From NCBI GenBank assembly GCA_964405845.1, contig CAYOPL010000013.1, positions 305 through 64,304 on the forward strand: 64,000 bases of DNA, in the 5' to 3' direction. A program made the translations under genes and the position numbers. The notes beneath the pieces are model-generated. The model saw only the letters and a list, made by a program, of their open reading frames with translations, was not told where the DNA came from and did no database searches. Source of the stretch: an uncultured Dehalococcoidia bacterium (lineage in GTDB: Bacteria; Chloroflexota; Dehalococcoidia; UBA6926). Shown one piece after another: positions 1 through 40,029 of this stretch; position 1 is the stretch's first letter; every line of letters begins with the position of its first letter.

Positions 1-912
1 ATTGGCGAAGAGACCGAAAAGCTCGCCGCCGCGCTTGGTCCCGGCGATGTCCTCTTCCTTGAAAACACGAGGTTCCACCCCGAAGAGGAGAAAAATGACC
101 CTGACAACGCCGCCGCCCTCGCCCGTCTCGCGGACATCTATGTGAATGACGCCTTTGGCTCCGCCCACCGCGCCCACGCCTCAACGGAGGGCGTCGCCCA
201 TCTCTTGCCCGCCGTCGCGGGATTCCTCCTTGATAAGGAGATACGGATGTTGGGCGGCATCCTCGAATCCCCCCGCCGTCCGCTGGCGACGCTCATGGGA
301 GGCGCAAAGGTCGGCGACAAGATGGCCGTCATGGAGCGACTCATCGAGAACTCGGACATGCTCATCGTCGGGGGCGGCATGGCCGCCGCGTTCCTCGAGG
401 CCCGCGGGATGCGAACCGGCAAGAGCCTGCTCGAAGACGACGGCCCTCAGATGGCCGGACGGATCGAAAGCGCCGCAAGAGCCCGCGGCATCCAACTACT
501 GATCCCGACCGACGTGATTGTGGCGACCGAACTCTCAGCCGATGCGGAGGCATCCGCCGTAAGCAGCGACGCCATCCCTGACGATGCGATGCTGCTGGAT
601 ATCGGCCCCGAAACGCGGGACATCTACACCCGCGCCCTGCGCCTCTGCCAGACCGTGCTCTGGAACGGCCCGATGGGCGTCTTTGAGTACGACCAATTCG
701 CCGGAGGAACCCAAGCCGTTGGGGAAAACCTTGCGCAATATGCGCGCGGGGGCACAACCGTTATTGTTGGCGGCGGCTCGACTGCCGAGGCCGTCGATGC
801 CCTGGGCTACGCAGACGCCATGACCCACGTCTCAACCGGCGGCGGCGCAGCCCTCGAATTCCTCGAAGGCCGAACCCTCCCCGGCATCGCCGCCCTCCAG
901 GACACTGACTGA
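1..912 (+). CDS. pgk: Phosphoglycerate kinase, C-terminal portion (5' end outside the window; reading frame is continuous from base 1)
   Basis: Translation from base 1 reads IGEETEKLAAALGPGDVLFLENTRFHPEEE...YVNDAFGSAHRAH...GGGMAAAFL...STGGGAALEFLEG, which carries the canonical PGK C-domain motifs. Stop at 910-912. Confidence 0.9.
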   Translation: MGEETEKLAAALGPGDVLFLENTRFHPEEEKNDPDNAAALARLADIYVNDAFGSAHRAHASTEGVAHLLPAVAGFLLDKEIRMLGGILESPRRPLATLMGGAKVGDKMAVMERLIENSDMLIVGGGMAAAFLEARGMRTGKSLLEDDGPQMAGRIESAARARGIQLLIPTDVIVATELSADAEASAVSSDAIPDDAMLLDIGPETRDIYTRALRLCQTVLWNGPMGVFEYDQFAGGTQAVGENLAQYARGGTTVIVGGGSTAEAVDALGYADAMTHVSTGGGAALEFLEGRTLPGIAALQDTD

Positions 913-923
913 ACCCCTTCGTC

Positions 924-1056
924 GTTCCCGCTTTCGCGGGAATCCAGTGCGGCGCGCAGCGCCGCCTCCCCCGTTCACCCTGAGCCTGTCGAAGGGTGAA
1001 CCCTCATCCATTCCGACCGCCTCTCAACATGTCATTCCGAGCGCAGCCGAGGAATC
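924..1056. repeat. Composite of three palindromic hairpin repeats: ttcccgc-tttc-gcgggaa at 924-944, gttcaccct-N11-agggtgaac at 973-1001, gtcattccgagcgcagccgaggaatc at 1031-1056. Related copies at 3425-3445 and 39985-40029.
   Basis: Perfect inverted repeats read directly in the sequence. The 975-996 segment (tcaccctgagcctgtcgaaggg) recurs at 3425-3445 (tcaccctgaccctgtgaaggg), and the cccgc-tttN-gcgggaat hairpin recurs at 40007-40026. Confidence 0.6.
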
Positions 1057-1085
1057 TAAAGCCTCATTGAATCCAGCAACTTGCC

Positions 1086-1091
1086 TATACT
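1086..1091 (+). promoter_or_regulatory. TATACT -10-like box upstream of the nuclease-cassette gene A (start 1137)
   Basis: The same ctatact motif recurs upstream of several other starts (3456, 5536, 7628, 20934 and 16283 on the minus strand). Confidence 0.3.
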
Positions 1092-1136
1092 GAACCATCC
1101 CCGCCTAACCTCCCCGCCTTTAACTGGGGCAGAACA

Positions 1137-2651
1137 ATGACTAACCAACCCCCTTACCAACTCTCCAAGACCAGATACATGGCCGGTCTTCAATGCCTCA
1201 AGCGGCTGTACCTGGAGGTTCATCATCGCGACCTTGCCGATCCCGTCGCTCCGAGCCAGCAAGCAATCTTTGATACCGGAAACCTGGTGGGGGAGTTGGC
1301 AAGGGACAGATTCCCTGGCGGCACTCTCATCGAAGAGCAGTACTACGAGCAGGACGGGGCAGACATTTCAACACGAGCGCTAATGTCGGATGCTTCCATT
1401 CCTGCCCTGTATGAGGCGGCGTTCTCGTTCGAGGGGATTAGGACAAGAGTAGACATCCTGACCAGAGCCGATGATGGGCAGGGATTCGATCTCATTGAAG
1501 TCAAATCGACGAGCCGCTTTAAGGAACGAGAGCACCTTCCGGATGTTGCGATTCAGTTGCACGTAGTGGAGGGGAACGGTGTGCCAATCCGCCGCGCGTA
1601 CCTGATGCATATCGACAATACCTACGTGTATGAGGGTGGGGAACACGACCTCACACGCCTCTTTGCCTTGGAGGATGTTACCGATACGGCGAGGGAATAC
1701 CTTGCTGATGTTGAGCCCGGCAAGCTGGCGGAGATGTGGGAGTCATTGGGTCAAGCCGCGACCCTTGACATAGAGACGGGCCGACATTGCACGTCCCCTT
1801 ACCGGTGCCTGTTCTATAGCCACTGCCATGCAGATGAGCCTGAACATCCGATTGCAGAACTCCCTCGACTATCGCAACGCGTAGAAGAACGACTCAAGAG
1901 GCTAGGGATTCGGGATATTGAGAGCATTCCGAGCGACGCGAGGGGCTTATCGAATGTACAGCGTCGGGTACGCGATAGCGTTATCACCGGCAAGCAATAT
2001 GTAGGCTCAGACCTCAGCGAGCGACTATCCGGAATTGAGTTTCCGGCGTCATTCCTGGACTTCGAGACGATTCTTACTGCTGTTCCTATATTCGTTGGGA
2101 CAAGGCCATACCAGCAGATTCCGTTCCAGTGGTCTCTCCATCTGCAGGAATCTGACGGCTCATTGTCGCACCGTGACTACCTGCACGATGGGGATGATGA
2201 CCCACGACAAGAGTTCGTCACCAGCCTACTCGAGGCCATCCCGGCCAGTGGCTCAATCGTCGTTTACTCCGGCTACGAAGAGCGAATTCTGCGACAGCTT
2301 GCCAGTGAGTTCCCTCAATACAAGGCTCAGTTGATTGCGCTTACCGCGCGGCTCGTCGATCTGCTGCAGATTGTGAGTGACTGCTATTACCACCCTAAGT
2401 TCCATGGGAGCTTCTCGATCAAATCGGTGACGCCCGTCCTCGCCCCTGAGCTTTCCTATGAGGAACTCGACATACCCGACGGCCTCGCCGCATCAGCCGC
2501 ATACCAACGCCTGCTCACCAATGATGTCCCGCCGTCGGAGGCCACAAAAGTCAGACAATCCCTGCTCACCTACTGCGCGCAGGACACCGAAGCAATGGTC
2601 CGTGTCTACCAGGCACTGCTAAGAGAGATTGCCAATACTGCCGATTCTTAG
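1137..2651 (+). CDS. Fused nuclease. N-terminal Cas4/RecB-like PD-(D/E)XK domain with a 4-Cys cluster, plus a C-terminal DEDD 3'-5' exonuclease-like (DUF2779-like) region.
   Basis: 504-aa ORF. The N-terminus SKTRYMAGLQCLKRLYL contains an early Cys. RVDILTR...GFDLIEVKST is a RecB-like motif II/III (D...EVK). CTSPYRCLFYSHC supplies three more Cys. The C-terminal LDFETI is Exo I-like D-x-E, and YCAQD is an Exo III-like Y-x3-D. Confidence 0.6.
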   Translation: MTNQPPYQLSKTRYMAGLQCLKRLYLEVHHRDLADPVAPSQQAIFDTGNLVGELARDRFPGGTLIEEQYYEQDGADISTRALMSDASIPALYEAAFSFEGIRTRVDILTRADDGQGFDLIEVKSTSRFKEREHLPDVAIQLHVVEGNGVPIRRAYLMHIDNTYVYEGGEHDLTRLFALEDVTDTAREYLADVEPGKLAEMWESLGQAATLDIETGRHCTSPYRCLFYSHCHADEPEHPIAELPRLSQRVEERLKRLGIRDIESIPSDARGLSNVQRRVRDSVITGKQYVGSDLSERLSGIEFPASFLDFETILTAVPIFVGTRPYQQIPFQWSLHLQESDGSLSHRDYLHDGDDDPRQEFVTSLLEAIPASGSIVVYSGYEERILRQLASEFPQYKAQLIALTARLVDLLQIVSDCYYHPKFHGSFSIKSVTPVLAPELSYEELDIPDGLAASAAYQRLLTNDVPPSEATKVRQSLLTYCAQDTEAMVRVYQALLREIANTADS

Positions 2652-2697
2652 CTGGCGATGGGCCTGAATCCGACCACCGAACACAAAAGGAGTCGCC

Positions 2698-3405
2698 ATG
2701 GGAATCCTTGGAATCAAAAACAGGACAGAAAACTGGAAGACGGCTCGAACATTCGCGCCGTTCTATGGTGCCAACAGTGTGCGTCTCGCACGCCGTCTGC
2801 TTGGCCCAGATGCAACTCTTGAGCCGGGTGATGTCCGGCTTGAATTGTTTTGGAAGGGCGTGCGCGACTTAATCGATGGTAGAAACAGAGGCCGGCCGAA
2901 GGCGGAGAAGAAGAAGTTCACTGACTATGAGGATGAGTTTGGTGCATCGTTTGAGAGACATTTTGGAGGCCTGCGCGCTGCGATCAAAAGATTTATTAAG
3001 GAACAACCCCGTGTATTAAATTCTCTCCGGGGGCGTAACTATACAACTAATGGCAACCTCGAAGATGGCACGAGCACCAAGACTAAGCTGGCGAGCAACC
3101 TAAACGGTATCGAAATCGATATCGTGCTTGAAACCCCGGAGCACCTCCTTATCGGCGAGGCGAAGGACGAATCAAATTTCGGCACGGACGGGAGTCAAGT
3201 TCTCGTTCACCAGCTAATGGGCCAGTACGTGCAAGCGACGGTTCTACTTGATGTTCTGAAGATCGAAAAACAGGTGATGCCCTTCATCGTCTGTGATGAT
3301 AAAGCCGCCGTCATGAGAAGCGGTCAGATACAGTTCATGCTACGGAAAGGCTGGCTGAAGGAAGACCGCATCCTCACGTGGGATGACATAGAGGCGTTGC
3401 GCTAG
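2698..3405 (+). CDS. Hypothetical protein with a PD-(D/E)XK-like motif (restriction-endonuclease-like fold). Lower GC than its surroundings.
   Basis: 235-aa ORF. The motif IEIDIVLETPEHLLIGEAKDE fits hhhD-x10-hGEAK. Codon usage is AT-richer than in the neighbouring genes. Confidence 0.55.
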   Translation: MGILGIKNRTENWKTARTFAPFYGANSVRLARRLLGPDATLEPGDVRLELFWKGVRDLIDGRNRGRPKAEKKKFTDYEDEFGASFERHFGGLRAAIKRFIKEQPRVLNSLRGRNYTTNGNLEDGTSTKTKLASNLNGIEIDIVLETPEHLLIGEAKDESNFGTDGSQVLVHQLMGQYVQATVLLDVLKIEKQVMPFIVCDDKAAVMRSGQIQFMLRKGWLKEDRILTWDDIEALR

Positions 3406-3424
3406 CGCCCACAGCCTCCCTCGC

Positions 3425-3445
3425 TCACCCTGACCCTGTGAAGGG
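3425..3445. repeat. Direct-repeat copy of the 975-996 element (tcaccctga[g/c]cctgt[c]gaaggg). Marks the right boundary of the nuclease cassette.
   Basis: About 20 of 22 nt are identical to 975-996, in the same orientation. Confidence 0.5.
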
Positions 3446-3473
3446 CCGCCCCCGCTATACTATCCACACTGAT

Positions 3474-4691
3474 ATGACCGACTTTGAACTGATCAAGAGC
3501 CTCGCCCGCAAGACCGACACCAAAATCGTCCTGCTTGTCATGGACGGACTGGGCGGCATCCCCCACCCGAAGACCCTCCGCACCGAGCTTGAGGCCGCGC
3601 AGACGGACAACCTGGATCGCCTCGCGCGCTCCTCGCAGACCGGCCTGTCCATCCCCGTTGCGCACGGCATTACGCCCGGCAGCGGCCCCGGCCACCTTGC
3701 CCTCTTCGGCTACGACCCGATCAAGTACCTCATCGGACGCGGCATCCTTGAAGCGCTTGGACTGGACATGGACGTCCGCGAGGGTGACATCGCCGCCCGA
3801 GGAAACTTCTGCACCATTGGCGAGGACGGCACGATAACCGACCGCCGCGCCGGCCGCATCTCAACCGACATCAACCGCGAGCTGACGGAGCGGCTGAATG
3901 ACATCACGCTTGACAAGGCGCAGGCCATCGCCGCCTCCGGCCGCGAGCATCGACTTGCCATAATATTCCGCCCAGAGGACGGCGGACCGCAGCTCAGCGA
4001 CGCCGTGACGGATAGTGACCCTCAAAGAGAGGGTTTAGCCCCCTTAAACGTCACTTCAAGCGCGGTTTTGGGCCAAAATACCGCCGACATTGTGAATTCC
4101 TTCCTCAAGGTTGCGATGTCCGTTATTGCTGATGCCCACCCCGCAAACGGCCTTGTTTTACGCGGATTTTCCACGACTCCCGATCTCCCCCAAATGTCGG
4201 ACATTTACGGCCTGGATCCTGCCGCGATCGCCTCATATCCAATGTACCGAGGCCTCGCCAAACTGGTCGGTATGAACGTCCTTCAGACTGGCGAAACTAT
4301 TGACCAACAGATTGAAACGGCGCGCGAAAATTGGGATACGCACGACTTCTTTTTCCTACATTACAAATACACCGACAGCGCAGGCGAAGACGGCGACTAC
4401 GATGCAAAAGTGGCCGCCATCGAGCGGCTGGATAGCGCCCTGCCCGCCCTGCTGGATCTCGATCCTGATGTTCTAATCGTGGCGGGAGACCATTCAACAC
4501 CAACCGCGATGGCCGCCCACAGCTGGCATCCGGTTCCCGTGATGATCCGGTCGCGGCACATCACCGCCGGCTTTGCAGAGGCGTTCACGGAGCGCGAATG
4601 CGCAAAAGGAATGCTGGGAACCATGGCGGCGACGGACATCATGCCGTTGGCGCTCGCCAATGCCGGTAAGCTGGACAAGTTCGGCGCGTAG
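3474..4691 (+). CDS. apgM: 2,3-bisphosphoglycerate-independent phosphoglycerate mutase, archaeal type (apgM family)
   Basis: MTDFELIKSLARKTDTKIVLLVMDGLGG...GHLALFGYDP...LHYKYTDSAGEDGD...VAGDHSTP matches the aPGM family. ATG at 3474 is preferred over GTG at 3438 because a TATACT box lies at 3456-3461. Confidence 0.8.
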   Translation: MTDFELIKSLARKTDTKIVLLVMDGLGGIPHPKTLRTELEAAQTDNLDRLARSSQTGLSIPVAHGITPGSGPGHLALFGYDPIKYLIGRGILEALGLDMDVREGDIAARGNFCTIGEDGTITDRRAGRISTDINRELTERLNDITLDKAQAIAASGREHRLAIIFRPEDGGPQLSDAVTDSDPQREGLAPLNVTSSAVLGQNTADIVNSFLKVAMSVIADAHPANGLVLRGFSTTPDLPQMSDIYGLDPAAIASYPMYRGLAKLVGMNVLQTGETIDQQIETARENWDTHDFFFLHYKYTDSAGEDGDYDAKVAAIERLDSALPALLDLDPDVLIVAGDHSTPTAMAAHSWHPVPVMIRSRHITAGFAEAFTERECAKGMLGTMAATDIMPLALANAGKLDKFGA

Positions 4692-4718
4692 CGCCATCCC
4701 AACAGAGAGGTAATACCC

Positions 4719-5489
4719 ATGCCATCCACCCGAACGCCGCTGATTGCCGGCAACTGGAAGATGAACACCACGCTCGCCGAGGCGCGAATCCTTGCCTACA
4801 ACGTTGTTCACATGGTCGGCGTTCCCAAGGGCGTTGACGTGGCCGTGTGCCCGCCGTTCGTCTCGCTGCCCATCGTTGCCGAGGCACTGCGCGGATCACC
4901 CGTCGCGCTCGGCGCGCAGAACCTGTATCCGGCAGAGTCAGGCGCGTACACGGGAGAGGTTGCGCCGAACATGCTGCAGGGCCTGTGCCGTTACGTGATT
5001 GTCGGCCACTCAGAGCGCCGCGCCTATTTCGCGGAGGCTGACGAGTTCGTGAATGCAAAGGTCCACACCGCCCTCAAATACGGCCTCACCCCGATCATGT
5101 GCGTCGGCGAAACGCTCCAGCAACGAGAGGCAGGCGAAACGGAAGACATCCTCAAGACGCAAACATCCGGCGGGCTAGCTGATGTGGATGACGTTTCAGC
5201 GGTTGTCGTTGCCTACGAACCCGTTTGGGCTATCGGCACGGGCGTGGCGGCAACACCGGACGACGCGCGTGAGGGAATCGCCGTCATCCGCAGCACAATC
5301 GCAGAGGCCCATGGGCAGGACACAGCCGACTCCGTCCGCATTCTTTACGGGGGCTCCATGAACCCGGAGAACGTTGCGTCGCTGCTTGAGCAGCCGGGCA
5401 TTGACGGAGGTTTGATTGGCGGCGCGTCACTCAACGCAGAGCAGTTCGTTGCACTGGTTCGAGCGGCGGAAGAACGCGAGCGCGAATAA
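4719..5489 (+). CDS. tpiA: Triosephosphate isomerase
   Basis: PLIAGNWKMNTTLAEA...IVGHSERR...AYEPVWAIGTG...GGASL are the canonical TIM motifs. Confidence 0.92.
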   Translation: MPSTRTPLIAGNWKMNTTLAEARILAYNVVHMVGVPKGVDVAVCPPFVSLPIVAEALRGSPVALGAQNLYPAESGAYTGEVAPNMLQGLCRYVIVGHSERRAYFAEADEFVNAKVHTALKYGLTPIMCVGETLQQREAGETEDILKTQTSGGLADVDDVSAVVVAYEPVWAIGTGVAATPDDAREGIAVIRSTIAEAHGQDTADSVRILYGGSMNPENVASLLEQPGIDGGLIGGASLNAEQFVALVRAAEERERE

Positions 5490-5648
5490 CCCCTGCTCCA
5501 TCCCAATTGCAATTCGAACAACCCATTCCGTTGTCTATACTGAATATAGGCAAAAGCGCATGGTCATAACGATATCCGAATCAGCCTGACTCGCTACCAC
5601 TGCCACATCGTTCTCTAAGGACAAAGAATTCAGGAGGAAAGCAGCAGC

Positions 5649-6650
5649 ATGTCCACAGGTTCCACCCTTCGCATCGGTCTCGTCGGCGCAGGCCGATTCT
5701 CTCAGCGGCGTGTCGTGCCGGAACTCGCAAAGGTTCCCGGTGTCGAGTTCGTTGCCGTCGCGAATAACAGCGCCGAGTCAACTGCCCGCGTCGCCGAGCA
5801 ATTCAACGTTGCTACACAAGCATCCTCCTGGCAGGACGTTGTTTCCTCGCCGGACGTTGACCTTGTCTTCAACGGGACCCAGGCCCCGCAGCATCGCGAC
5901 ATCTTGCTTGGCGCGCTGGAGAACGACAAACATCTTCTCACTATGAATCCCCTGGCCATGACCGGTGCGGAGGGGCGTGAGATCGTAGCGGCACTTGAGG
6001 CGCGGCCCCAGCTCAAGGCGCGGCAATATCCCGCATTCCCCGGCGGCCCGTACGACCGTGAAGACGCTCTTGTCCTACGACTGTTAGCTGCGGGGCGTAT
6101 CGGGCGTGTACTAAGCGCGGAGATGTACTGGCATACGCCCTTCCTCGCCTTTGGCAGTTACTTTGACATCCTCAATCGATGGTTGGGGGCGCATCAGCGT
6201 TTGTTGGTCGTTCGCAAACAGCACGAGGTGGACAACCGACGCGTTGGCTTCTCAGCCATCCTCGCGGACCTCGGGGATGACGTCGCCGTCCGCTACGTGC
6301 ATGACAATCTCGCGCCGAAGACCACGCAAAACGCTCACATCGCTCTCCACGGGGAAGAGGGCAGCATCATCATTGAGGGCTATCCTCCCGATCCGTTGTC
6401 GTCCGTGCGTATCGCGTCAGGTGATGGCGAAGCGGAGGTCGTGCCTGTTCCGGGCGATCTGCGACAAGCTTATGAGGACGAGCGGCGCGTCAATATCGAG
6501 GAGCAGTTCCTCGGATGGGTAATGGGTGGCGCGGAACCGACTCCACTCCTTCTGACCTTGCAGCAGGGCTTGCAGTCCATTGGTGCGGCGGAGGCGTTCG
6601 TGGCCTCAATGCGACAGGGCGGTGCCTGGGTGGAGTTGCCGCAAGACTAG
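5649..6650 (+). CDS. Gfo/Idh/MocA family NAD(P)-dependent oxidoreductase
   Basis: N-terminal Rossmann-type LRIGLVGAGRFSQRRVVPEL; 333 aa. Confidence 0.75.
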   Translation: MSTGSTLRIGLVGAGRFSQRRVVPELAKVPGVEFVAVANNSAESTARVAEQFNVATQASSWQDVVSSPDVDLVFNGTQAPQHRDILLGALENDKHLLTMNPLAMTGAEGREIVAALEARPQLKARQYPAFPGGPYDREDALVLRLLAAGRIGRVLSAEMYWHTPFLAFGSYFDILNRWLGAHQRLLVVRKQHEVDNRRVGFSAILADLGDDVAVRYVHDNLAPKTTQNAHIALHGEEGSIIIEGYPPDPLSSVRIASGDGEAEVVPVPGDLRQAYEDERRVNIEEQFLGWVMGGAEPTPLLLTLQQGLQSIGAAEAFVASMRQGGAWVELPQD

Positions 6651-6696
6651 GCTCCACACTAACGCGCGCTATTTCGAACAAGGCCAAATTGCACCC

Positions 6697-7614
6697 ATGG
6701 GCACACCGGTCATTGCGCTCGTCGGGGCAACGGCCGTTGGCAAGTCGGTCGTCGCAGTAGAACTCGCTAGACGCATTGAGGGCGAAATCATCAACGCGGA
6801 CAGCCGACAGGTCTATCGCGGCATGGCAATTGGCACGGGCATACCCTCTGATGAAGAACGCGGCGGTGTCCCACACCATCTCTATGGCATATCTGAACCG
6901 GATGACGACTTCTCTCTGGGACGGTTTCTCACAGCCGCCACGTGCGCCATAGAGGACATCCATGAGCGGGGAAAAACGCCAATCATTGTAGGTGGCACCG
7001 GCCAATACGTGTGGGCCTTGCTTGAGGGATGGAACGTTCCTGAGGTGGCGCCGAATCCTGAGCTGCGAGAAGAACTGATGGAGCGTGCTGAAGTCGAGGG
7101 GCGCGACGCCCTGCACGAGGAACTCCGCCGCCTTGACCCCGCCGCCGCAGAACTCATCCACCCCAACAACCTGATTCGTACTGTGCGCGCCCTTGAAGTT
7201 GTCAGGACAACGGGCCGCCCCTTCTCAGAGCAGCGCACCCAAACTGCCCCGCCCTGGGACATACGACTCTGCGGCATCAGCATGGAACGCGAGGCACTGG
7301 ACGCGCGTATCGAACAGCGCGTTGACCGCCAATTGGAGACCGGCTGGATCGACGAGGTCAAAAATCTCCTGGAGCAGGGCTACTCACCATCGCTGTCGTC
7401 ATTCCGCAGCATCGGCTACAGAGAGATAGCGGCGCACATTGAGGGTGGCATACCTTTTGATGAGATGCGGCAAGCCATCATTCACAAGACGCGCCGATTC
7501 GCCCGAACGCAATTCGCGTGGTTCCGCGCCGATGACGAGCGCATCACATGGATGGATGCGAGCCAGAGTACGGAGCAGTTAGCTGAACAGATACAAGCTA
7601 CGTTGGGACTCTGA
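6697..7614 (+). CDS. miaA: tRNA dimethylallyltransferase
   Basis: MGTPVIALVGATAVGKSVVAVELARRIEGEIINADSRQVYRGMAIGTG contains the P-loop and the DSRQVY motif. Start taken at the internal ATG at 6697. Confidence 0.85.
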   Translation: MGTPVIALVGATAVGKSVVAVELARRIEGEIINADSRQVYRGMAIGTGIPSDEERGGVPHHLYGISEPDDDFSLGRFLTAATCAIEDIHERGKTPIIVGGTGQYVWALLEGWNVPEVAPNPELREELMERAEVEGRDALHEELRRLDPAAAELIHPNNLIRTVRALEVVRTTGRPFSEQRTQTAPPWDIRLCGISMEREALDARIEQRVDRQLETGWIDEVKNLLEQGYSPSLSSFRSIGYREIAAHIEGGIPFDEMRQAIIHKTRRFARTQFAWFRADDERITWMDASQSTEQLAEQIQATLGL

Positions 7615-7639
7615 CAGCGGACGGCGGTATACTTTGGCT

Positions 7640-8515
7640 ATGAATTTCACGAAGATGCACGGCACGGGCAACGACTTCATCGTCGTTGAGGGCGGTCCTG
7701 CCGAGGCCGATTCCACGAATTGGCCGGAGGTGGCACGCGAGGCGTGCAGCCGCCGGTTCGGCGTGGGCGCAGACGGCATTCTTGTCATTCGCCCCTCAGA
7801 TGATGCCGCCTTGCAGATGCAGATCTTCAACCCGGATGGCTCCGAGGCAGAGATGTGCGGCAACGGCATCCGCTGCGTCACCAAGTACGCCATCGAGCGC
7901 GGTATCGTCGATAGCTCAGCGCTCCGCAACGAGGCCGGTCTTCCCATTGAGACGCTCGGGGGGCTTATGACCGTGTGGCCGCAGAACGGCAGCTCATCGG
8001 GCGCGATTGAGGCTGTGCGTGTTGGCATGGGCGCGCCGATACTTGAACCCAGCGAAATCCCTGTGGCCGTGAATGGCCCGGCGCCTGTGCAGGGTCACAC
8101 GCTTGAGGTAGGTGGCTACGCCCTGAGTCTTTCCTTTATTTCCATGGGAAATCCCCACGCCATCGCATTCATCGACACACCGGTCGCGGACTTCCCGCTT
8201 GAGACTATCGGGCCGATGGTTGAAAACCATCCCCTGTTCCCGGAGCGGGTCAACTTTGAAATCGTCAATATCCGGTCTCGCGAAGAGATAACCATGCGCG
8301 TGTGGGAACGAGGCGCAGGCCTCACCATGGCGTGCGGCACCGGCGCTTGCGCGGTTGTTGTCGCAGCACGCATTGCCGGGATGGTGGATGATTGCGTGTC
8401 AGTTGAGTTGCCGGGCGGGTCGCTCACCATCGAGTGGGACGGCAACCCGGACAGCCAGGTCTACATGACCGGCCCTGCCACAACGGTTTACGCCGGACAA
8501 CTGCTCACGAACTAG
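7640..8515 (+). CDS. dapF: Diaminopimelate epimerase
   Basis: MNFTKMHGTGNDFIVV...EAEMCGNGIRC...ACGTGACAVV carries both catalytic Cys motifs. A TATACT box at 7628-7633 sits 6 nt before the ATG at 7640. An alternative TTG start lies at 7634. Confidence 0.85.
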   Translation: MNFTKMHGTGNDFIVVEGGPAEADSTNWPEVAREACSRRFGVGADGILVIRPSDDAALQMQIFNPDGSEAEMCGNGIRCVTKYAIERGIVDSSALRNEAGLPIETLGGLMTVWPQNGSSSGAIEAVRVGMGAPILEPSEIPVAVNGPAPVQGHTLEVGGYALSLSFISMGNPHAIAFIDTPVADFPLETIGPMVENHPLFPERVNFEIVNIRSREEITMRVWERGAGLTMACGTGACAVVVAARIAGMVDDCVSVELPGGSLTIEWDGNPDSQVYMTGPATTVYAGQLLTN

Positions 8516-9788
8516 GCCGCTCAGCGGTTCCTGATTCAGCAGCAGTCTCCGATTCGATGTACGTTCGCGCGAGGCGCGCGGGCAGTTGCGGCCGCTTCAT
8601 TGTTAGGTACATATACAAGGAAATTACCGCCATCAGGCCAAGCGAGAAGAATGCCCACCGGTATCCGTCCGCGCCGTATTGATCAAACATGTACCCGGCG
8701 AAAATCGGCGCGAAGACCCCTCCCATTGCTGTAAACGTGAACTGCAGGCCCAAAAGCCGGCCATAGATCTGTCTGCCAAAGAGTTCTCCAAGCAGAGCCG
8801 ATCGAGGCGGGTTGCCAAGACCAAACCCGAACCCGAAGAACACGGCGAAAATGACGGCCGTAATCGGGTCCCGCGCAAAGAAGAATAGCACCGCGCCTAT
8901 GATCTGCATCGCGAACGAGATTGAGACGATTTTGCGTTTGTCATACATGTCAGCAAGAATGCCGCCGAGGATCCGCGCCGGGAAACTGGCAAGCGGCAGG
9001 AGCGTGATCAGTGCGGTGGCCCATTCATCACTGAATCCGAACTCGTTCCACACCTTGAACTGGTGAATGATGAACGAGCCAAAGAAAATGAACCCGAAAA
9101 TGTTCGCCACAACGTACTTCCAGTACGTCGATGTTCTGATCGCCTCCTTCACTGTGAACGTCGTATCGGCATAGCGGTCATCCTGATCCATCTCAGCGAA
9201 TCGCGCTGCCTCAGCCTCGCTCATGCCATCTGGATGCAGCCCGTACTTCTCAGGTGCGTCCCGCATCATCAGTCCGAGCGGCAGACCGACAATAAACGTC
9301 GTGATTCCCAGGTAGAAAAGCGCATCCCTCCATTCAAAGAGGGCGATCAAGCCAACGACGAGCGGAACAAGCAGGGCGCTAACACCCGCTCCGTAGGACA
9401 CGATAGCCATGGCCGTGCCACGCCGACGGATGAACCAGGCGTTGACGGCGGTGTTGACCGTAAGGAAAGAGCCGAACGCGAGACCAAACGCCATTACTGC
9501 GAACGCGGCGAAGAAATGCCACAACTCCTGCACCAAACTCAGCCCGATGAACCCGCAGCCGAGAATGAACATGCCGCCAAGCACGGATTTGCGTGGCCCA
9601 AAGCGGTCAACGACATATCCAACGATTGGGCCAAAAATGCCCTGCTCGGTCCGCTGAAAGGCGAATGCGATGGAGGCCACGGCGGCCGGCCACTTAAACT
9701 CGTCAATGATTTCATCGAAGAACGGCGCGAAGCCGTAGAAGAACACACCGGCTGTGTAGAACAAGACGCCGAAACTGGCAATCGCCAA
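8505..9788 (-). CDS. MFS transporter (paralog 1 of 4)
   Basis: 427 aa with about 12 predicted TM helices. The G-x3-D-R/K-x-G-R-R/K-like loop is read as VGYVVDRFGPRK. Confidence 0.8.
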   Translation of the reverse strand: MAIASFGVLFYTAGVFFYGFAPFFDEIIDEFKWPAAVASIAFAFQRTEQGIFGPIVGYVVDRFGPRKSVLGGMFILGCGFIGLSLVQELWHFFAAFAVMAFGLAFGSFLTVNTAVNAWFIRRRGTAMAIVSYGAGVSALLVPLVVGLIALFEWRDALFYLGITTFIVGLPLGLMMRDAPEKYGLHPDGMSEAEAARFAEMDQDDRYADTTFTVKEAIRTSTYWKYVVANIFGFIFFGSFIIHQFKVWNEFGFSDEWATALITLLPLASFPARILGGILADMYDKRKIVSISFAMQIIGAVLFFFARDPITAVIFAVFFGFGFGLGNPPRSALLGELFGRQIYGRLLGLQFTFTAMGGVFAPIFAGYMFDQYGADGYRWAFFSLGLMAVISLYMYLTMKRPQLPARLARTYIESETAAESGTAERPSS

Positions 9789-9946
9789 CCACCAGCCGTA
9801 GAAGATGCGGTTGGGGTGAATCAGAACCGATAATGCAGCGTTTACGGCGACCTCCCAACAAAAACCAAAGCCCGCGAACGGGCGGACTGAATAAGTATAG
9901 CCCCGCTACGCCACCGGGCGGCACAGTCCTGCCGAACGCAGTCAGA

Positions 9947-11245
9947 TTATGCAGATGCCGGAGGTGGTACGGTGGCCGGTCGTGGGCGCGTTACCGTGAG
10001 TGTCAGCGGTACAGATAGGCTCAGGATCGCGGCGACGATCACGAATCCGATCACGTAGCTGTCCGTCTGATCGTAGAGCCAGCCTATAGCAACCGGCGAC
10101 ATGATAGCCGGCAATGAGGCCAGCCCCTGCTGAATACCAGCTACCCGCCCAAATATCGACAGTCCCCAGTACTCTGCCTGCAGCGCCAGCCGCACCGATG
10201 ATTGTGAGCCGATGGCGCTTCCCAGGAGAAATCCGGCGAGTATCGTCAGCCACGGAACAGTTGACATGGGTATCAGTACAATCGCGATCCCCTGCACGGT
10301 GATTCCTATGGCAAGCACCACCCGCTTGTCCACGTAGTCGGCTATCGTCCCGGCAATAACGCGAATGGGAATGCTCGAGGATGTCTGCCACGCGAACATG
10401 AAGGCAATGAACTCTTTGGAGAATCCATTCTTCTGCAGGATGAGCGCCTCGTACGTGATGATGGACCAGGACGCGCCCAGCAGTGCGCTCGCTAGGACAT
10501 ACTGCCAATAGCCCCGGCTACGCAGTACGTCTCGCAGCGTGAAATTGGCCTCCGGCAAGATGTTCGCGCGAGATGACGGCGCAGTCTGGTCCTCGGGTGG
10601 ATCGCCGCCGTCGGGCACCATGCCGTAGTCCTGCGGCCTGTTGCGGATGAGGGGAATCAGGAGCATCCCGACAACCCAGAACCCCACACCCGCGCCGAAC
10701 AGGACGGATCGCCAACCAAACTCCGGGATGATCCACGCCCACACTCCTGCCAGCAGGCCGGACATGCCCGGCCCAACAATCATGATTCCGTTAGCACGAC
10801 CCCGAAATCGCCGAAACCACGCGTTGATCGCCGCGGCCGTCACGATGAATGACCCGGCGCTGAGGCCGAAGGCAAAGACGATGAAGACTCCGTAGTACTG
10901 CCAGATGTTGTTAACCTGGCTCATCAGCATGCAGCCGCCGCCGGAAACGAAGTAGCCGACTATCAGGATCTTACGAGCGCCATATCGATCAACGAGGTAA
11001 CCGGTCAAGGGAGCGGTGATGCCGGATTCCAGTCGCTGTAGAGAAGGACCGATGCCAGCCAGCGCCTGCGACCATCCAAAGTGCGTCACCATCGCAGCGA
11101 AGAAGTTGGAGAAGCCCCAGAAGCCGATGCCGTCCGTGTAGGCGGCAAGCCCCGTGCCCGACAGCGTCACCCACCAGCCATAGAAGACCTGCCGCGGATG
11201 CCGGGCGAACATCCACGCCGTCATAACGGTTTTCTGGGTCCTCAT
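9947..11245 (-). CDS. MFS transporter (paralog 2 of 4)
   Basis: 432 aa. LTGYLVDRYGARK motif. N-terminal FYGWWVTLSG is shared with paralog 3. Confidence 0.8.
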   Translation of the reverse strand: MRTQKTVMTAWMFARHPRQVFYGWWVTLSGTGLAAYTDGIGFWGFSNFFAAMVTHFGWSQALAGIGPSLQRLESGITAPLTGYLVDRYGARKILIVGYFVSGGGCMLMSQVNNIWQYYGVFIVFAFGLSAGSFIVTAAAINAWFRRFRGRANGIMIVGPGMSGLLAGVWAWIIPEFGWRSVLFGAGVGFWVVGMLLIPLIRNRPQDYGMVPDGGDPPEDQTAPSSRANILPEANFTLRDVLRSRGYWQYVLASALLGASWSIITYEALILQKNGFSKEFIAFMFAWQTSSSIPIRVIAGTIADYVDKRVVLAIGITVQGIAIVLIPMSTVPWLTILAGFLLGSAIGSQSSVRLALQAEYWGLSIFGRVAGIQQGLASLPAIMSPVAIGWLYDQTDSYVIGFVIVAAILSLSVPLTLTVTRPRPATVPPPASA

Positions 11246-12537
11246 GTCGTGGCAAGCCTCACTTCATCGGCGGCGCCACTCCTCGGACGCGTCATCATAA
11301 GCACCATGATCACGGCCAGAGCAAGAGGAACAACGACTGTCATAAACGCGATACGGTAATCGTACGTGTCCGCGAGCCAACCCACCACCACAGGCGAAAT
11401 CAAGCCGCCAATCGCCCCTGCCCCAACCTGCAGGCCCATCAGTGAGCCGAAGATTCCGCGGCCCCAGTAATCGCCCTGCAATGACAGCCGCGCCGCGTTG
11501 CTGCCACCCCACCCCGTGCCATAGATGACCTCAAAGATGATGGCCACCCAGATGTTGGCGACGAAGACGAACAGGATCCCTCCCGCCAGTTGAAAGCTCA
11601 GCATCGTCGCCACGACAAGCCGCTTGTCGAATCGATCTGCGAGCGCGCCGGAGAAGAATCGCATTGGGATGCTCGCAACAGTGAAAACAACCACCATCGC
11701 GCCCGCCGTCTCCATGGAGAAGCCGTAGCTGACAAGCGCGGGGATGTGGTGGACAACCATCGCCGTGATGGCCACCTGCTGCATGGAAAGCGCGCCGACA
11801 TAGAGCAAGTATGAACGACTCAACAGGATGGATCGCACCGTTCCCGGCGACGGCTCAGGCTCAGCCGCATCTCCTGCTTGCCCTGATTCCGAGTCGTTTG
11901 TCTCCGGCGGATCGCCGTCCATGCGCAGGCCGTAATGCTCCGGCCGCCTCCGCAGAACCATGGCGAGCGGGATGCACGTTATCCACGTTCCGATGCCCGT
12001 GAACAGGGCAGCGTCGCGCCAACCGTACTCCCCTATCAGCACGACGAGCAGCGCCGTCATGATGCCCCCGAAGCCCGGCCCCATGAAGGTCAGGCCCAGC
12101 GCCTTGCCACGGTTGCGCAGGAACCAGTTGCTGACGGCGGTCGCCACCATCACGTAGGATGTTGCGCCCATGCCGCTGCCGATGAGGATGAACGCGACGT
12201 AGTATTGCCACGCGTGCTCAACTTGGCTCAGGACGATGAATCCCGCCCCGCCGCTGAACATCGCCACCGCCGTGACGAGACGAGGCCCAAACCGGTCCGT
12301 GAGCGCACCGATAGTCGGACTCAAAATCGCCGTGAACACCGCCATCATGGCGGGCCCGCGTGAAACCTGCTCCCGCGTCCAGTTCAGATCCAGTCGGATA
12401 CTGTCAAAGAACGCGCTGAACCCAAAGAAACTGACGCCCGTCGTGTAGAACATCAGGTACATGCCGGACAGCGCCATCCACCAGCCATAGAAAAGGCGCG
12501 GGCGGCGGCGGCGTGGTGCTGAAACGTCAGCAGTCAT
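11242..12537 (-). CDS. MFS transporter (paralog 3 of 4)
   Basis: 431 aa. LFYGWWMALSG...GALTDRFGPR. 4-bp start/stop overlap with paralog 2. Confidence 0.8.
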   Translation of the reverse strand: MTADVSAPRRRRPRLFYGWWMALSGMYLMFYTTGVSFFGFSAFFDSIRLDLNWTREQVSRGPAMMAVFTAILSPTIGALTDRFGPRLVTAVAMFSGGAGFIVLSQVEHAWQYYVAFILIGSGMGATSYVMVATAVSNWFLRNRGKALGLTFMGPGFGGIMTALLVVLIGEYGWRDAALFTGIGTWITCIPLAMVLRRRPEHYGLRMDGDPPETNDSESGQAGDAAEPEPSPGTVRSILLSRSYLLYVGALSMQQVAITAMVVHHIPALVSYGFSMETAGAMVVVFTVASIPMRFFSGALADRFDKRLVVATMLSFQLAGGILFVFVANIWVAIIFEVIYGTGWGGSNAARLSLQGDYWGRGIFGSLMGLQVGAGAIGGLISPVVVGWLADTYDYRIAFMTVVVPLALAVIMVLMMTRPRSGAADEVRLATT

Positions 12538-39984: not shown

Positions 39985-40029
39985 GAGTGAAGGGAGTGGA
40001 TTCCGGATTCCCGCTTTTGCGGGAATGAC
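39985..40029. repeat. Copy of the palindromic repeat family: gtgaaggg followed by the hairpin attcccgc-tttt-gcgggaat
   Basis: 8-bp perfect stem at 40007-40026. Shares cccgc-tttN-gcgggaat with 925-942 and gtgaaggg with 3437-3445. Confidence 0.55.

What the first reader, a model, noticed from the sequence alone, without database searches (positions are those of the whole stretch)
913..3473. Lower-GC two-gene nuclease cassette inserted inside a conserved glycolytic operon and bracketed by imperfect direct repeats
pgk, apgM and tpiA are normally contiguous. Here a 2.5-kb segment sits between pgk and apgM. It carries a 504-aa fused nuclease and a 235-aa PD-(D/E)XK-like protein. Gene B in particular is visibly AT-richer than its neighbours. 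The insert is bounded on the left by a cluster of three palindromic hairpins (924-1056) and on the right by a 21-nt element (3425-3445) that is a near-direct repeat of 975-996 (tcaccctgagcctgtcgaaggg vs tcaccctgaccctgtgaaggg). Repeat-bracketed insertion of two predicted nucleases into a housekeeping operon is the signature of a horizontally acquired defence or restriction-like module. I do not recognise it as a named system.
Basis: partly seen in the sequence, partly recalled or inferred. Interest (0 to 1): 0.72.

Follow-up and report, generated by a model that had tools for sequence, protein, structure and literature searches.

The report
Relocated two-nuclease gene pair in hotspot
Two predicted DNA-cutting genes really do interrupt a glycolysis operon in this sponge-type Dehalococcoidia genome, but they are a lineage-wide, uncharacterised gene pair that sits elsewhere in relatives and has landed in a repeat-rich spot where related genomes carry other accessory genes, so the flanking repeats are not its own insertion scars.

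Summary
A 2.35-2.4 kb segment with two co-oriented genes separates pgk from apgM. It has lower GC than its flanks and lies between two copies of a 33-nt repeat. In 10 of 17 relatives pgk and apgM are 15-125 nt apart.

The interpretation needs correcting in three ways.
- The flanking repeat is a dispersed REP-like palindrome. It occurs in 0-3 or more copies at this same junction in relatives that have no insert, so it is not a cassette-specific duplication or att site.
- The pair is not foreign. Relatives carry the same pair, with the same low GC, between glmS and bacA or between bacA and glmU.
- The pgk|apgM junction is a variable hotspot. Other relatives carry a methyltransferase-Mrr fusion, an AbiJ-like gene or other cargo there.

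Gene A is a DUF2779 protein: a Cas4-like Fe-S nuclease fused to a DEDDy exonuclease. Gene B belongs to a small, hypervariable PD-(D/E)XK family that is absent from Pfam. A close A homologue is instead followed by a PDDEXK_4 nuclease.

Best reading: a relocated accessory nuclease module with an exchangeable partner. It is probably restriction-like defence, and DNA repair is not excluded. No experimental characterisation of the DUF2779 family was found.

The parts
1..912 (+). 3' part of pgk (phosphoglycerate kinase). The gene runs off the left end of the window. Its stop codon is at 910-912.
   Evidence: PF00162 E=2.7e-87. It is 89-95% identical to pgk of relatives.
924..943 (.). REP-like hairpin HP1 (GTTCCCGC-TTTC-GCGGGAAT), a member of a dispersed family.
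   Evidence: Predicted stem. A second copy lies at window 40008-40025. There are 36 copies in 355 kb of relatives' loci.
949..965 (.). GC-rich hairpin HP2 (GCGGCGC-GCA-GCGCCGC). It travels together with HP1 in relatives.
   Evidence: Predicted stem. Window 915-972 matches L001 8241-8298, L009 4557-4611 and several places in L024.
964..1001 (.). Left copy of the direct repeat, a full REP_A palindrome (GTTCACCCT...AGGGTGAAC). It is native to the pgk|apgM junction.
   Evidence: repeat. One search shows the same unit at insert-free junctions. Searches show that window 968-1038 is homologous to the L014, L016 and L019 junctions.
1031..1066 (.). REP-like element HP3 (GTCATTCCGAGCGCAGCCGAGGAATCTAAAGCCTCA). 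The left boundary of the inserted segment lies at or just after it (1030-1067).
   Evidence: Another copy lies at 61358-61388 on the minus strand. It is present after REP_A at the L016 and L019 pgk junctions, and also upstream of A at the glmS locus in L002 and L003. Independent contigs break here.
1067..1136 (+). Leader of gene A. It contains the conserved CCAGCAAC-TT-GCCTATACT box, with a -10-like TATACT at 1086-1091.
   Evidence: Conserved upstream of A in L001, L002, L003, L086 and L087. Its promoter role is inferred by eye. The sigma-70 consensus scan found no promoter-like site.
1137..2651 (+). Gene A, 504 aa, a DUF2779 protein. The N-terminal part is a Cas4/RecB-like PD-(D/E)XK nuclease with four invariant Cys. 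The C-terminal part is an RNase H-fold DEDDy 3'-5' exonuclease.
   Evidence: PF11074 at 141.7 bits against a cut-off of 23.3, and weak RNase_H_2. Weak Cas4 hits. Invariant C20, D106, E121, C218/C224/C230, D308, E310, D408, Y479 and D483, and nearly invariant K123, in 41 homologues. Model pLDDT 82.5 with weak fold hits to Cas4, 3'hExo and RNase H. The domain reading agrees with PMC13621843 and PMC3985635.
2652..2697 (+). A-B spacer with an AGGAG ribosome-binding site upstream of B. It is conserved at the DNA level together with the first 66 nt of B.
   Evidence: Sequence. blastn homology of window 1030-2764 with L002 and L003 ends 66 nt into B.
2698..3405 (+). Gene B, 235 aa, a stand-alone PD-(D/E)XK (restriction-endonuclease fold) protein of a small family with no Pfam model. 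Residues 1-22 are conserved, residues 23-133 form a hypervariable helical region, and residues 134-183 hold the catalytic core E139/D141...E154-x-K156.
3406..3420 (+). Tail of the cassette (CGCCCACAGCCTCCC). The right boundary of the inserted segment is near 3420.
   Evidence: The same motif follows the B stop codon in L086 and L087 at the other locus.
3414..3445 (.). Right copy of the direct repeat, a decayed REP_A half-unit (TCACCCTGACCCTGT-GAAGGG). It is native to the junction.
   Evidence: The same position and context (REP_A followed by CCCCGCTATACTGTCCACACTGAT-ATG) occur in L010, L015, L011 and L008.
3446..3473 (+). Conserved apgM leader (CCGCCCCCGCTATACTATCCACACTGAT) with a -10-like TATACT at 3456-3461.
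   Evidence: Conserved in nearly all relatives, with or without an insert. Its promoter role is inferred.
3474..4691 (+). apgM (cofactor-independent phosphoglycerate mutase, archaeal type). The true start is ATG 3474.
   Evidence: PF01676 and PF10143. 80-95% identical over residues 1-405 in relatives.
4719..5489 (+). tpiA (triosephosphate isomerase), which continues the operon.
   Evidence: PF00121 E=4.8e-89. Syntenic in all relatives.

Best explanation
The segment from about 1067 to about 3420 is a two-gene nuclease module.

What the genes are:
- Gene A is a DUF2779 protein. It fuses a Cas4-like PD-(D/E)XK nuclease that has a four-cysteine Fe-S site to a DEDDy 3'-5' exonuclease.
- Gene B is a small restriction-endonuclease-fold protein with an intact D...ExK site and a hypervariable helical domain.

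Where it comes from: the pair is a long-standing but positionally unstable accessory module of sponge and marine Dehalococcoidia. In relatives it lies between glmS and bacA or between bacA and glmU. In this genome it has been moved, or re-acquired from a close relative, into a cluster of REP-like palindromes between pgk and apgM. In sister genomes that cluster holds other accessory cargo. The flanking 'direct repeat' is two copies of a resident REP unit. REP-to-REP or short-homology recombination is the likely route of entry, because the segment carries no integrase or transposase.

Likely mechanism (inferred): B recognises and cuts target DNA through its variable domain. Because no methyltransferase accompanies it, it probably acts on modified, foreign or structurally aberrant DNA. 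A then degrades the broken ends in both polarities: 5'-3' by the Cas4-like domain and 3'-5' by the DEDDy domain.

Shown: the gene content, the catalytic motifs and folds, the insertion, the hotspot, the pairing, and the partner exchange. Inferred: nuclease activity, A-B cooperation, a defence role, and the recombination route.
For: Insertion and hotspot:
- 10 of 17 relatives have a pgk-apgM gap of 15-125 nt. Five have 2.8-3.9 kb inserts of unrelated content.
- Those inserts carry an N6_N4 methyltransferase-Mrr_cat fusion that matches PADLOC MTase_II, plus LPD29, DUF5677 and unknown genes. L006 carries an AbiJ_NTD4/PDC-S32 protein and a methyltransferase remnant. L021 carries a 100-aa ORF, and L007 carries another ORF.

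The repeats are resident REPs.

Same pair elsewhere:
- glmS|A|B|bacA in L001-L005 and L086, and bacA|A|B|glmU in L087, with the same low GC.
- DNA homology of window 1030-2764 with L002 and L003.

Functional coupling of A and B: A lies directly upstream of B in at least 20 metagenomic and genomic loci, down to 45-55% (A) and 34-45% (B) identity. The order is reversed in L117 and L127.

Accessory-like, arms-race-like behaviour of B:
- A is 87/84/78% identical but B only 46-47% in L001-L003. L086 and L087 pair an 83-84% A with a 74-77% B.
- The variable region is residues 23-133.
- The family comprises 391 clusters at 50% identity, which indicates deep divergence within a small family.

Partner exchange:
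- In L141 an 83%-identical A is followed by a PDDEXK_4 nuclease instead of B.
- PDDEXK_4 also neighbours DUF2779 on an Aliarcobacter plasmid.

On plasmids DUF2779 sits with AAA ATPase, WYL, PLD and helicase genes, and next to transposases, HNH and HipA.

Catalytic residues are invariant in both proteins. The B fold is that of a restriction endonuclease.

There is no integrase, transposase or tRNA.
Against: - Neither protein matches any PADLOC model convincingly. B matches nothing in PHROGs, plasmids or viral contigs.
- Every close A homologue whose context I examined keeps the gene in a conserved housekeeping neighbourhood. That looks more like a core gene than a sporadic defence system.
- A DUF2779 gene is quasi-essential in the minimal Mycoplasma JCVI-syn3.0 (PMC13621843), which points to nucleic-acid housekeeping.
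- WYL neighbours are also typical of DNA-damage regulons (my own knowledge, not tested here).
- B occurs without A in 8 loci, and A occurs without B in most of its more than 5,000 clusters.
- Direction and mechanism of the move are not shown. The glmS-bacA locus of this genome is not in the window.
- The left junction rests on one assembly.
Confidence: 0.55

Rival explanations
1. Housekeeping DNA repair or end-processing pair. A and B would be core genome-maintenance enzymes of this lineage, for example a break-resection or mismatch/structure-specific nuclease set in a lineage that may lack RecBCD or AddAB (not tested here). On this view the location between pgk and apgM is a neutral rearrangement.
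For: - The pair was found in every close A-homologue context examined, mostly at one syntenic site.
- Catalytic residues are strictly conserved.
- DUF2779 is quasi-essential in JCVI-syn3.0, and its DEDD domain resembles the repair exonuclease MrfB (PMC13621843).
- There are no PADLOC hits.
Against: - B diverges far faster than A and is exchanged between alleles.
- B is replaced by an unrelated PDDEXK_4 nuclease in L141.
- B is decayed in L129, L130 and L140.
- The B family is tiny and restricted.
- The pair keeps a deviant low GC.
- The pair changes position (and the window).
- The window's insertion site holds RM-like and Abi-like cargo in relatives.
Core repair genes rarely show these features.
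Confidence: 0.27
2. One reading: a recently and horizontally acquired foreign defence cassette, whose insertion created or used the flanking direct repeats as a target-site duplication or att site.
For: The repeat is statistically real. GC is lower than in the flanks. Relatives have contiguous pgk-apgM.
Against: - The repeat unit pre-exists at this junction without an insert, in tandem in L008, L011 and L014, and is dispersed in the genomes.
- The left copy and the spacer after it are homologous to the L014, L016 and L019 junctions.
- The same pair with the same GC is resident in relatives at another locus.
- A's identity to relatives (76-87%) tracks housekeeping identity (84-95%) loosely.
- There is no integrase, transposase, terminal inverted repeat or tRNA.
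Confidence: 0.08
3. Selfish nuclease cassette. The pair, or B alone, would promote its own spread by cutting REP-rich intergenic sites, homing-endonuclease-like, and being copied in by repair. This would explain its movement without a recombinase.
For: - The pair occupies at least three different intergenic positions, always next to REP-like elements.
- It has no mobility gene.
- B has a restriction-endonuclease fold.
- B also occurs alone in unrelated metabolic contexts.
Against: - No conserved target sequence is split by the insert beyond generic REP units.
- The pair is single-copy in every locus seen.
- Synteny at glmS/bacA is conserved over 75-87% A identity.
- Other unrelated cargo uses the same hotspot.
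Confidence: 0.07
4. Assembly or binning artefact that joins an accessory contig to the glycolytic operon through shared repeats.
For: The left junction runs through four multi-copy hairpins. Two independent short-read contigs stop exactly at 1030-1032.
Against: The B-to-apgM junction is reproduced base-for-base in two independent runs, reaching window 4546. apgM is preceded by pgk in all relatives where both genes are visible. The pgk-side REP cluster is homologous to relatives' pgk junctions.
Confidence: 0.03

Closest known systems
DUF2779 / PF11074 family (for example MMSYN1_0389 of JCVI-syn3.0, NCBIfam UU173 family, RNase H-like family F.17)
   Same: Gene A scores 141.7 bits against PF11074. 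It has the two-domain architecture described for the family, Cas4-like PD-(D/E)XK plus a DEDD(y) exonuclease (PMC13621843 and PMC3985635).
   Different: Gene A keeps all four Fe-S cysteines, whereas MMSYN1_0389 has only two. It scores far below the UU173 subfamily cut-off, 31 bits against 225. Here it is coupled to a dedicated PD-(D/E)XK partner, which has not been reported for the Mycoplasma proteins. I found no experimental characterisation of the family.
Cas4 and AddB/RecB-type Fe-S PD-(D/E)XK nucleases
   Same: The D...ExK motif, a Q-motif and the C...CX6CX5C cysteine pattern are invariant. There are weak HMM and fold hits to Cas4.
   Different: No cas1, cas2 or CRISPR array is adjacent. 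The HMM hits are not significant (E 0.004-0.05). The protein is fused to an exonuclease domain. It is at most a 'solo Cas4-like' domain.
Methylase-independent (type IV-like) restriction endonucleases and stand-alone REase-fold defence effectors (Mrr, McrC, MspJI, Shedu SduA, Hachiman HamA, Can2)
   Same: B has the REase core fold and an intact catalytic D...ExK. There is no cognate methyltransferase in the module. A variable accessory domain could confer specificity.
REP/BIME-type intergenic palindromes as recombination and insertion hot spots
   Same: The elements are short palindromes, intergenic, multi-copy and dispersed. Their copy number varies at the same junction between relatives. Different cargo is inserted at different points of the cluster.
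   Different: These are sequence families of Dehalococcoidia, with no Rfam match. No RAYT transposase was looked for. Copies even occur in frame inside pgk in some relatives.
Defence or variable-gene hotspots between conserved core genes
   Same: One conserved junction (pgk|apgM) holds alternative cargo in sister genomes: an RM-type methyltransferase-Mrr fusion, an AbiJ-like/PDC-S32 protein, small ORFs, or A+B.
   Different: The islet is very small, one to four genes. It lies inside an operon of central metabolism, and no integrase or tRNA borders it.
AAA ATPase - DUF2779 - WYL and PDDEXK_4 - DUF2779 - WYL gene clusters on proteobacterial and campylobacterial plasmids
   Same: A DUF2779 nuclease is combined with a second nuclease or an ATPase in an accessory context. 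The PDDEXK_4 partner also occurs next to a close A homologue in L141.
   Different: The window's module has no WYL regulator and no ATPase. B is unrelated to PDDEXK_4 in profile comparison. These plasmid clusters are themselves uncharacterised.

Membership tests
DUF2779 (PF11074) | Match to the Pfam model above the gathering score | tested here: met
   141.7 bits against a cut-off of 23.3, covering residues 306-427 and profile positions 2-126 of 126. All close homologues carry PF11074.
DUF2779 (PF11074) | N-terminal Cas4-like PD-(D/E)XK catalytic triad conserved through the family (Asp, Glu, Lys per PMC13621843) | tested here: met
   D106 and E121 are invariant and K123 is nearly invariant in 41 homologues.
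DUF2779 (PF11074) | C-terminal DEDD(y/h) exonuclease motifs | tested here: met
   D308-x-E310, D408 and Y479-x3-D483 are invariant. Weak RNase_H_2 hit, E=2e-4. Weak fold hits to 3'hExo and RNase H.
CRISPR-associated Cas4 | Significant match to Cas4 profiles | tested here: inconclusive
   PADLOC Cas4 E=0.004 and 0.049. PHROG 'CRISPR/Cas system associated' E=0.0036. Foldseek hit to Cas4 4r5q, E=0.02.
CRISPR-associated Cas4 | Location in a cas operon next to cas1/cas2 or a CRISPR array | tested here: not met
   The neighbours are pgk, gene B and apgM. No tandem or direct repeat array lies in 850-3550.
Restriction-modification system (types I-III) | Endonuclease accompanied by a cognate DNA methyltransferase | tested here: not met
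   No methyltransferase domain in A or B and no further ORF in 913-3473. No homologue of the relatives' methyltransferase anywhere in the window.
Type IV (modification-dependent) restriction enzyme | REase-fold nuclease with an intact catalytic site and without a methyltransferase | tested here: met
Type IV (modification-dependent) restriction enzyme | Cleavage dependent on modified DNA, or a recognisable modified-base reader domain (SRA, YTH, Mrr-N and similar) | not testable with these tools
   The variable helical region 23-133 has no profile match. A biochemical assay is needed.
Known anti-phage defence systems (PADLOC-DB v2) | Significant match of the components to the system's models | tested here: not met
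   A gives only weak Cas4 hits. B gives none.
Mobile element (transposon, integrative island or integron cassette) | Own recombinase, terminal inverted repeats or attC, or a tRNA or att target | tested here: not met
   Only two ORFs, both nucleases. No inverted repeat pairs at the boundaries. No tRNA in 1-12000. The flanking repeat is a resident REP.
REP-like intergenic repeat families (the flanking repeat and hairpins) | Short palindromic units, multi-copy and dispersed, with copy number varying between relatives at the same site | tested here: met
   There are 49, 36 and 29 copies of the three units in 355 kb of relatives' loci, and 0-3 or more copies at the insert-free junction.
REP-like intergenic repeat families (the flanking repeat and hairpins) | Association with a RAYT (TnpA_REP) transposase in the genome | not tested
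   Only 64 kb of this genome is available, and I ran no search for RAYT.
PDDEXK_4 (PF14281), the alternative partner of DUF2779 | Gene B matches the family profile | tested here: not met
   No Pfam hit. hhalign of the B profile against PDDEXK_4 members gives probability 0.2%.

The most novel reading that the evidence does not exclude
DUF2779 nucleases together with an interchangeable, fast-evolving PD-(D/E)XK partner form a previously unrecognised, methyltransferase-independent anti-mobile-element defence family. The partner is either the B family, which has no Pfam model, or PDDEXK_4. On this reading the partner's hypervariable domain selects the target and the dual-polarity DUF2779 exonuclease destroys it. 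The plasmid-borne AAA-DUF2779-WYL clusters would be regulated variants of the same theme.
Probability: 0.3. Interest if true: 0.7.

Novelty: new variant of a known kind. Interest (0 to 1): 0.5.

Why it matters
DUF2779 is a very large bacterial family: more than 5,400 clusters at 90% identity were found with this query alone. I found no experimental characterisation of it, and one member is quasi-essential in the minimal cell JCVI-syn3.0.

This locus adds three things:
- A conserved partnership with a second nuclease.
- Evidence that this partner is hypervariable and is exchanged between unrelated PD-(D/E)XK families.
- A genomic setting that behaves like a miniature defence hotspot inside a central-metabolism operon of sponge symbionts.

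Together these give a concrete, testable hypothesis for what DUF2779 proteins do. The case is also a caution that direct repeats around an insert can be resident REP elements rather than insertion scars.

Tried and rejected
- Target-site duplication or att reading of the repeat. Rejected after reading the insert-free junctions of 12 relatives and counting REP copies.
- Recent foreign origin inferred from GC. Rejected because the pair has the same low GC at its other locus in relatives.
- B as a modular adaptor (conserved N-terminus plus swapped effector). The loci with only the first ~56 aa of B (L128-L130) turned out to be remnants next to an unrelated ORF.
- B as a member of DUF6997, NERD or PDDEXK_4. 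The hits are only sporadic and sub-threshold, and hhalign was negative.
- Sequence search of A and of the B profile against PDB. Nothing meaningful.
- Foldseek of the full-length A model against PDB. Only weak per-domain hits.
- B against viral structures, viral contigs and plasmids. Nothing.
- Rfam on 1-8000. No family.
- Sigma-70 and terminator scan. No promoter-like site, and terminator-like sites at chance level.
- Search for the glmS-bacA donor locus in the window. Absent.
- The afdb50 fold library was unavailable.
- A fuzzy-regex REP count timed out. I replaced it with blastn-short.
- Literature. DUF2779/PF11074 appears in 7 papers, none of which characterises the family's function experimentally (one lists a transposon mutant). 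DUF6997 appears in none. No paper links Cas4-like, DEDD, WYL and defence.

Full report
1. WHAT IS IN THE SEQUENCE

The window opens inside pgk, whose stop codon is at 910-912. It continues with a 224-nt non-coding stretch, gene A (1137-2651, 504 aa), a 46-nt spacer, gene B (2698-3405, 235 aa), a 68-nt non-coding stretch, apgM and tpiA. The true apgM start is ATG 3474, as in all relatives (MTDFELIK/MADFELIK), not the upstream GTG that the ORF list gives.

GC falls from 0.64-0.67 in pgk to 0.50-0.57 across the two genes and rises again in apgM. Per gene, GC and GC3 are:
- pgk 0.660 and 0.782
- A 0.554 and 0.622
- B 0.516 and 0.589
- apgM 0.606 and 0.727
- tpiA 0.626 and 0.724

Among 54 non-overlapping ORFs of at least 150 aa in the window (median GC3 0.708), B ranks third-lowest and A ninth-lowest. 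The dip is real but moderate.

The left non-coding stretch holds four hairpins, not three, at 924-943, 949-965, 973-1001 and 1031-1056.

The direct repeat is real and longer than reported. It spans 964-996 and 3414-3445, with 29 matches in 33 columns and one gap. None of 1000 shuffles reaches its score.

Two independent assemblies, from SRR16090826 and SRR16090827, reproduce window 1032-4546 and 1030-3631 without a mismatch. The B-to-apgM junction is therefore not a binning artefact. Both contigs break at the 1031-1056 hairpin, so the pgk-side junction rests on the window's contig alone.

2. IT IS AN INSERTION, IN A HOTSPOT

A scan of GTDB species representatives with ApgM returned 19 Dehalococcoidia/Chloroflexota MAGs with 80-95% identical ApgM. 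Their record names suggest that many derive from marine sponge metagenomes, but no habitat metadata was checked.

In the 17 MAGs where both pgk and apgM are visible, the gap between them is as follows:
- 15-125 nt in ten
- 308 nt of pure repeats in L014
- 446 nt with a 100-aa ORF in L021
- 2.8-3.9 kb in five (L006, L009, L016, L019, L024)

None of the large inserts is homologous to A or B.
- L009, L016, L019 and L024 carry a ~550-aa N6_N4 DNA methyltransferase fused to an Mrr-type restriction-endonuclease domain (PF01555 with PF04471; PADLOC MTase_II E=8e-68). Upstream of it each has a different gene: LPD29, DUF5677, or unknown.
- L006, the closest relative, carries an AbiJ_NTD4/PDC-S32 protein, two small ORFs and a truncated remnant of that methyltransferase.
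- L007 has yet another ORF in front of apgM.
- In L011 and L014 the methyltransferase lies upstream of pgk instead.

The pgk|apgM junction is therefore a variable site. It collects accessory genes, several of which are of restriction or abortive-infection type.

3. THE FLANKING REPEATS ARE RESIDENT REP-LIKE ELEMENTS

Insert-free junctions read as follows: pgk stop, then 0 to 3 or more copies of GTTCACCCTGAGCCTGTCGAAGGG, then CCCCGCTATACTGTCCACACTGAT-ATG(apgM). Copy numbers are:
- none in L013 and L017
- one in L010 and L015
- one inverted in L012
- two in tandem in L008
- three in L011
- several in L014

The same unit and the other two hairpin types are scattered through relatives' loci. There are 49, 36 and 29 copies in 355 kb. 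They also occur elsewhere in the window, at 40008 and 61363.

Window 968-1038 is homologous to the L014 junction, and window 800-1066 is homologous to the L016 and L019 junctions. The left repeat copy, the spacer and the 1031-1066 element are therefore native to the site. On the right, CGCCCACAGCCTCCC directly after the B stop codon is shared with L086 and L087 at the other locus. The remainder (REP half-unit plus apgM leader) is native.

The inserted segment is thus about 1067-3420, or at most 1030-3424. An L008-like ancestor with two tandem REP units would give the observed 'bracketing' if the insertion fell between them. The repeat says nothing specific about how this cassette arrived.

In L009 the homologous REP cluster lies to the right of the insert, whereas in the window it lies to the left. 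Different cargo has therefore entered at different points of the cluster.

The segment has no integrase, transposase or boundary inverted repeat, and there is no tRNA nearby. I infer that recombination through short REP homology, or replacement of the whole junction by recombination with DNA from a relative, is the likely route.

4. THE PAIR IS RESIDENT IN THE LINEAGE, AT ANOTHER PLACE

The closest homologues of A (87, 85, 84, 83, 82 and 78% identity) all lie in a conserved neighbourhood. The arrangements are glmS|A|B|bacA|glmU (L001-L005, L086, L140, L142) or glmS|bacA|A|B|glmU (L087, L141).

One of these genomes, isolate S16_98, is also in the ApgM set. Its pgk|apgM junction holds only the 100-aa ORF (L021), while its A+B pair lies at glmS|bacA (L003).

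DNA homology between the window and L002/L003 runs from 1030 through A to 66 nt into B.

At that locus the pair has the same deviant composition as in the window. A is 0.56-0.57 and B is 0.48-0.50, against 0.64-0.66 for glmS and bacA. Low GC is therefore a stable trait of the pair and not a mark of recent foreign origin.

The glmS-bacA region of this genome is not in the window. Relocation and re-acquisition from a relative cannot be told apart.

5. WHAT THE PROTEINS ARE

Gene A:
- It is a DUF2779 protein (PF11074, 141.7 bits) with weak RNase_H_2, Cas4 and TM0106/UU173 hits.
- In 41 homologues, C20, D106, E121, Q140 and C218/C224/C230 are invariant and K123 is nearly invariant (the ExK lysine). 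These form a Cas4/AddB-type PD-(D/E)XK site with a four-cysteine cluster.
- D308-x-E310, D408 and Y479-x3-D483 (DEDDy) are also invariant.
- The AlphaFold model has pLDDT 82.5. It is low only at residues 1-35 and 195-230, where the cysteines lie. It gives weak fold hits to Cas4, 3'hExo and RNase H.
- This agrees with the two published in-silico descriptions of the family (PMC3985635 and PMC13621843).
- Neither those two papers nor the other five that mention DUF2779 characterise the family's function experimentally.

Gene B:
- It has no Pfam, NCBIfam, PADLOC or PHROG family.
- Its model is confident (pLDDT 91.4, pTM 0.90).
- E139, D141, E154, K156, H171, Q172 and an N-terminal NRTENWK motif are invariant in 46 sequences.
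- An exhaustive profile search finds only 391 clusters at 50% identity among 1.84 billion representatives. All are stand-alone proteins of about 210-330 aa or shorter fragments.
- None is found on plasmids or viral contigs.

6. COUPLING, HYPERVARIABILITY AND PARTNER EXCHANGE

Coupling. In loci retrieved with the B profile, A lies immediately upstream of B in at least 20 loci. This holds down to about 45-55% (A) and 34-45% (B) identity to the window's proteins. Two loci have the order B then A. Eight have B without A, and three have only a remnant of A.

Hypervariability. B evolves quite differently from A.
- L001, L002 and L003 combine an A of 87, 84 and 78% identity with a B of only 46-47%.
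- L086 and L087 combine an A of 84 and 83% with a B of 77 and 74%.
- Against L001-L003, B residues 1-22 are 91-100% identical, residues 23-133 are 23-28%, the catalytic core 134-183 is 64-72%, and the C-terminus is 37-40%.
- B alleles have therefore been shuffled relative to A, with a hypervariable helical region.

Partner exchange. In L141 an A that is 83% identical is followed at the same position by a 334-aa PDDEXK_4 protein (PF14281, E=2e-7). That protein is unrelated to B in profile comparison. The same Pfam family neighbours DUF2779 on an Aliarcobacter plasmid.

Decay. B is split in L140 and reduced to about 56 codons in L129 and L130.

Plasmid contexts. DUF2779 is present in 33 of 72,556 plasmid records. 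There it recurs as AAA ATPase-DUF2779-WYL (Rhodoferax, Diaphorobacter, Sphingobium). It also occurs with helicase, HATPase and PLD genes (Planktothrix), or beside HNH, HipA, transposase and integrase genes.

7. HOW IT MOST LIKELY WORKS

Shown: two proteins with intact nuclease sites, co-oriented and 46 nt apart, conserved as neighbours, with a variable domain in the smaller one and no methyltransferase.

Inferred: B is the target-selecting endonuclease. A resects the resulting ends in both polarities, with the Cas4-like domain acting 5'-3' and the DEDDy domain 3'-5'.

I favour a restriction-like defence role, at roughly 0.4 on its own. The reasons are:
- the fast, mosaic evolution of B
- the partner exchange
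- gene decay in some lineages
- the persistent deviant GC
- the positional instability
- the company the pair keeps in this hotspot and that DUF2779 keeps on plasmids

The main rival is a housekeeping DNA-repair or end-processing role. The following favour it:
- the pair was found in every close A-homologue context examined, mostly at one syntenic site
- DUF2779 is quasi-essential in JCVI-syn3.0
- B resembles NucS and the DEDD domain resembles MrfB
- there is no PADLOC match

WYL neighbours fit either reading.

8. NOVELTY AND VERDICT

The finding is real. The 'repeat-bracketed foreign cassette' story is replaced by 'lineage-resident nuclease pair relocated into a REP-rich variable hotspot'.

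What is new:
- a family of restriction-endonuclease-fold proteins that has no Pfam model
- its coupling to DUF2779
- its exchange with PDDEXK_4
- the miniature hotspot inside the pgk-apgM-tpiA operon

The function remains untested. I rate the novelty as a new variant of a known kind and the interest as 0.5.

Noticed in passing
L009 3518-4789 (also pgk of L014, L019 and L024): pgk is 20-32 aa longer in these relatives because a REP-like palindrome sits in frame inside the coding sequence (for example ...TPTSLRHSRESGNPVRRAAPPPSDTTN...). tblastn alignment lengths are 276-288 against 256, with identity dropping to about 80%.
   Followed up: partly
L141 3210-4214: A close homologue of gene A (83% identity) is followed by a 334-aa PDDEXK_4 (PF14281) nuclease instead of gene B, at the same position (bacA|A|X|glmU). 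The same Pfam family neighbours DUF2779 on Aliarcobacter plasmid NZ_CP104379.
   Followed up: yes
L011 3422-6242 and L014 4709-6298: The methyltransferase-Mrr fusion lies between pgk and apgM in L009, L016, L019 and L024. In L011 and L014 it lies upstream of pgk, and in L011 it has an AbiJ-like gene and a small ORF beside it. The variable region therefore straddles pgk.
   Followed up: partly
window 1031-1091; L002 5902-5975; L003; L087; L019 about 5200-5260: The HP3 element is followed by CCACCAAC, a few bases, and GCCTATACT/GCCTATAAT (a -10-like box). This arrangement lies in front of gene A at three different loci and in front of an unrelated 157-aa ORF in L019. HP3 may be part of a portable promoter-bearing element.
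   Followed up: partly
L140 6521-7200; L129 1629-1793; L130 388-555; L111-L113 4792-4953: There are signs of decay of the pair in some lineages. B is split into 73-aa and 118-aa ORFs in L140. Only the first ~56 codons of B remain after A in L129 and L130. Only the last 54 codons of A remain before B in L111-L113.
   Followed up: partly
window 58068-60590 (+) and 15447-16202 (-): These are the two ORFs with the lowest GC3 in the window. One is an 840-aa protein with a weak CAP-domain hit (GC3 0.52). The other is a 251-aa ORF with no Pfam match (GC3 0.47), which may not be a real gene.
   Followed up: partly
L007 1-837: In this relative (ApgM 91% identical) the DNA in front of apgM carries a minus-strand ORF (lipoprotein-like by eye; not scanned), followed by an HP3 copy. 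pgk does not lie within 837 nt. This is another distinct cargo at the same junction.
   Followed up: no
L089 6001-6669; L090; L108; L109; L114; L118; L119: Gene B homologues occur alone, without a DUF2779 neighbour, among metabolic genes. In L089 the B homologue lies between a GMC oxidoreductase and a P450 in a 3.1-Mb genome.
   Followed up: no
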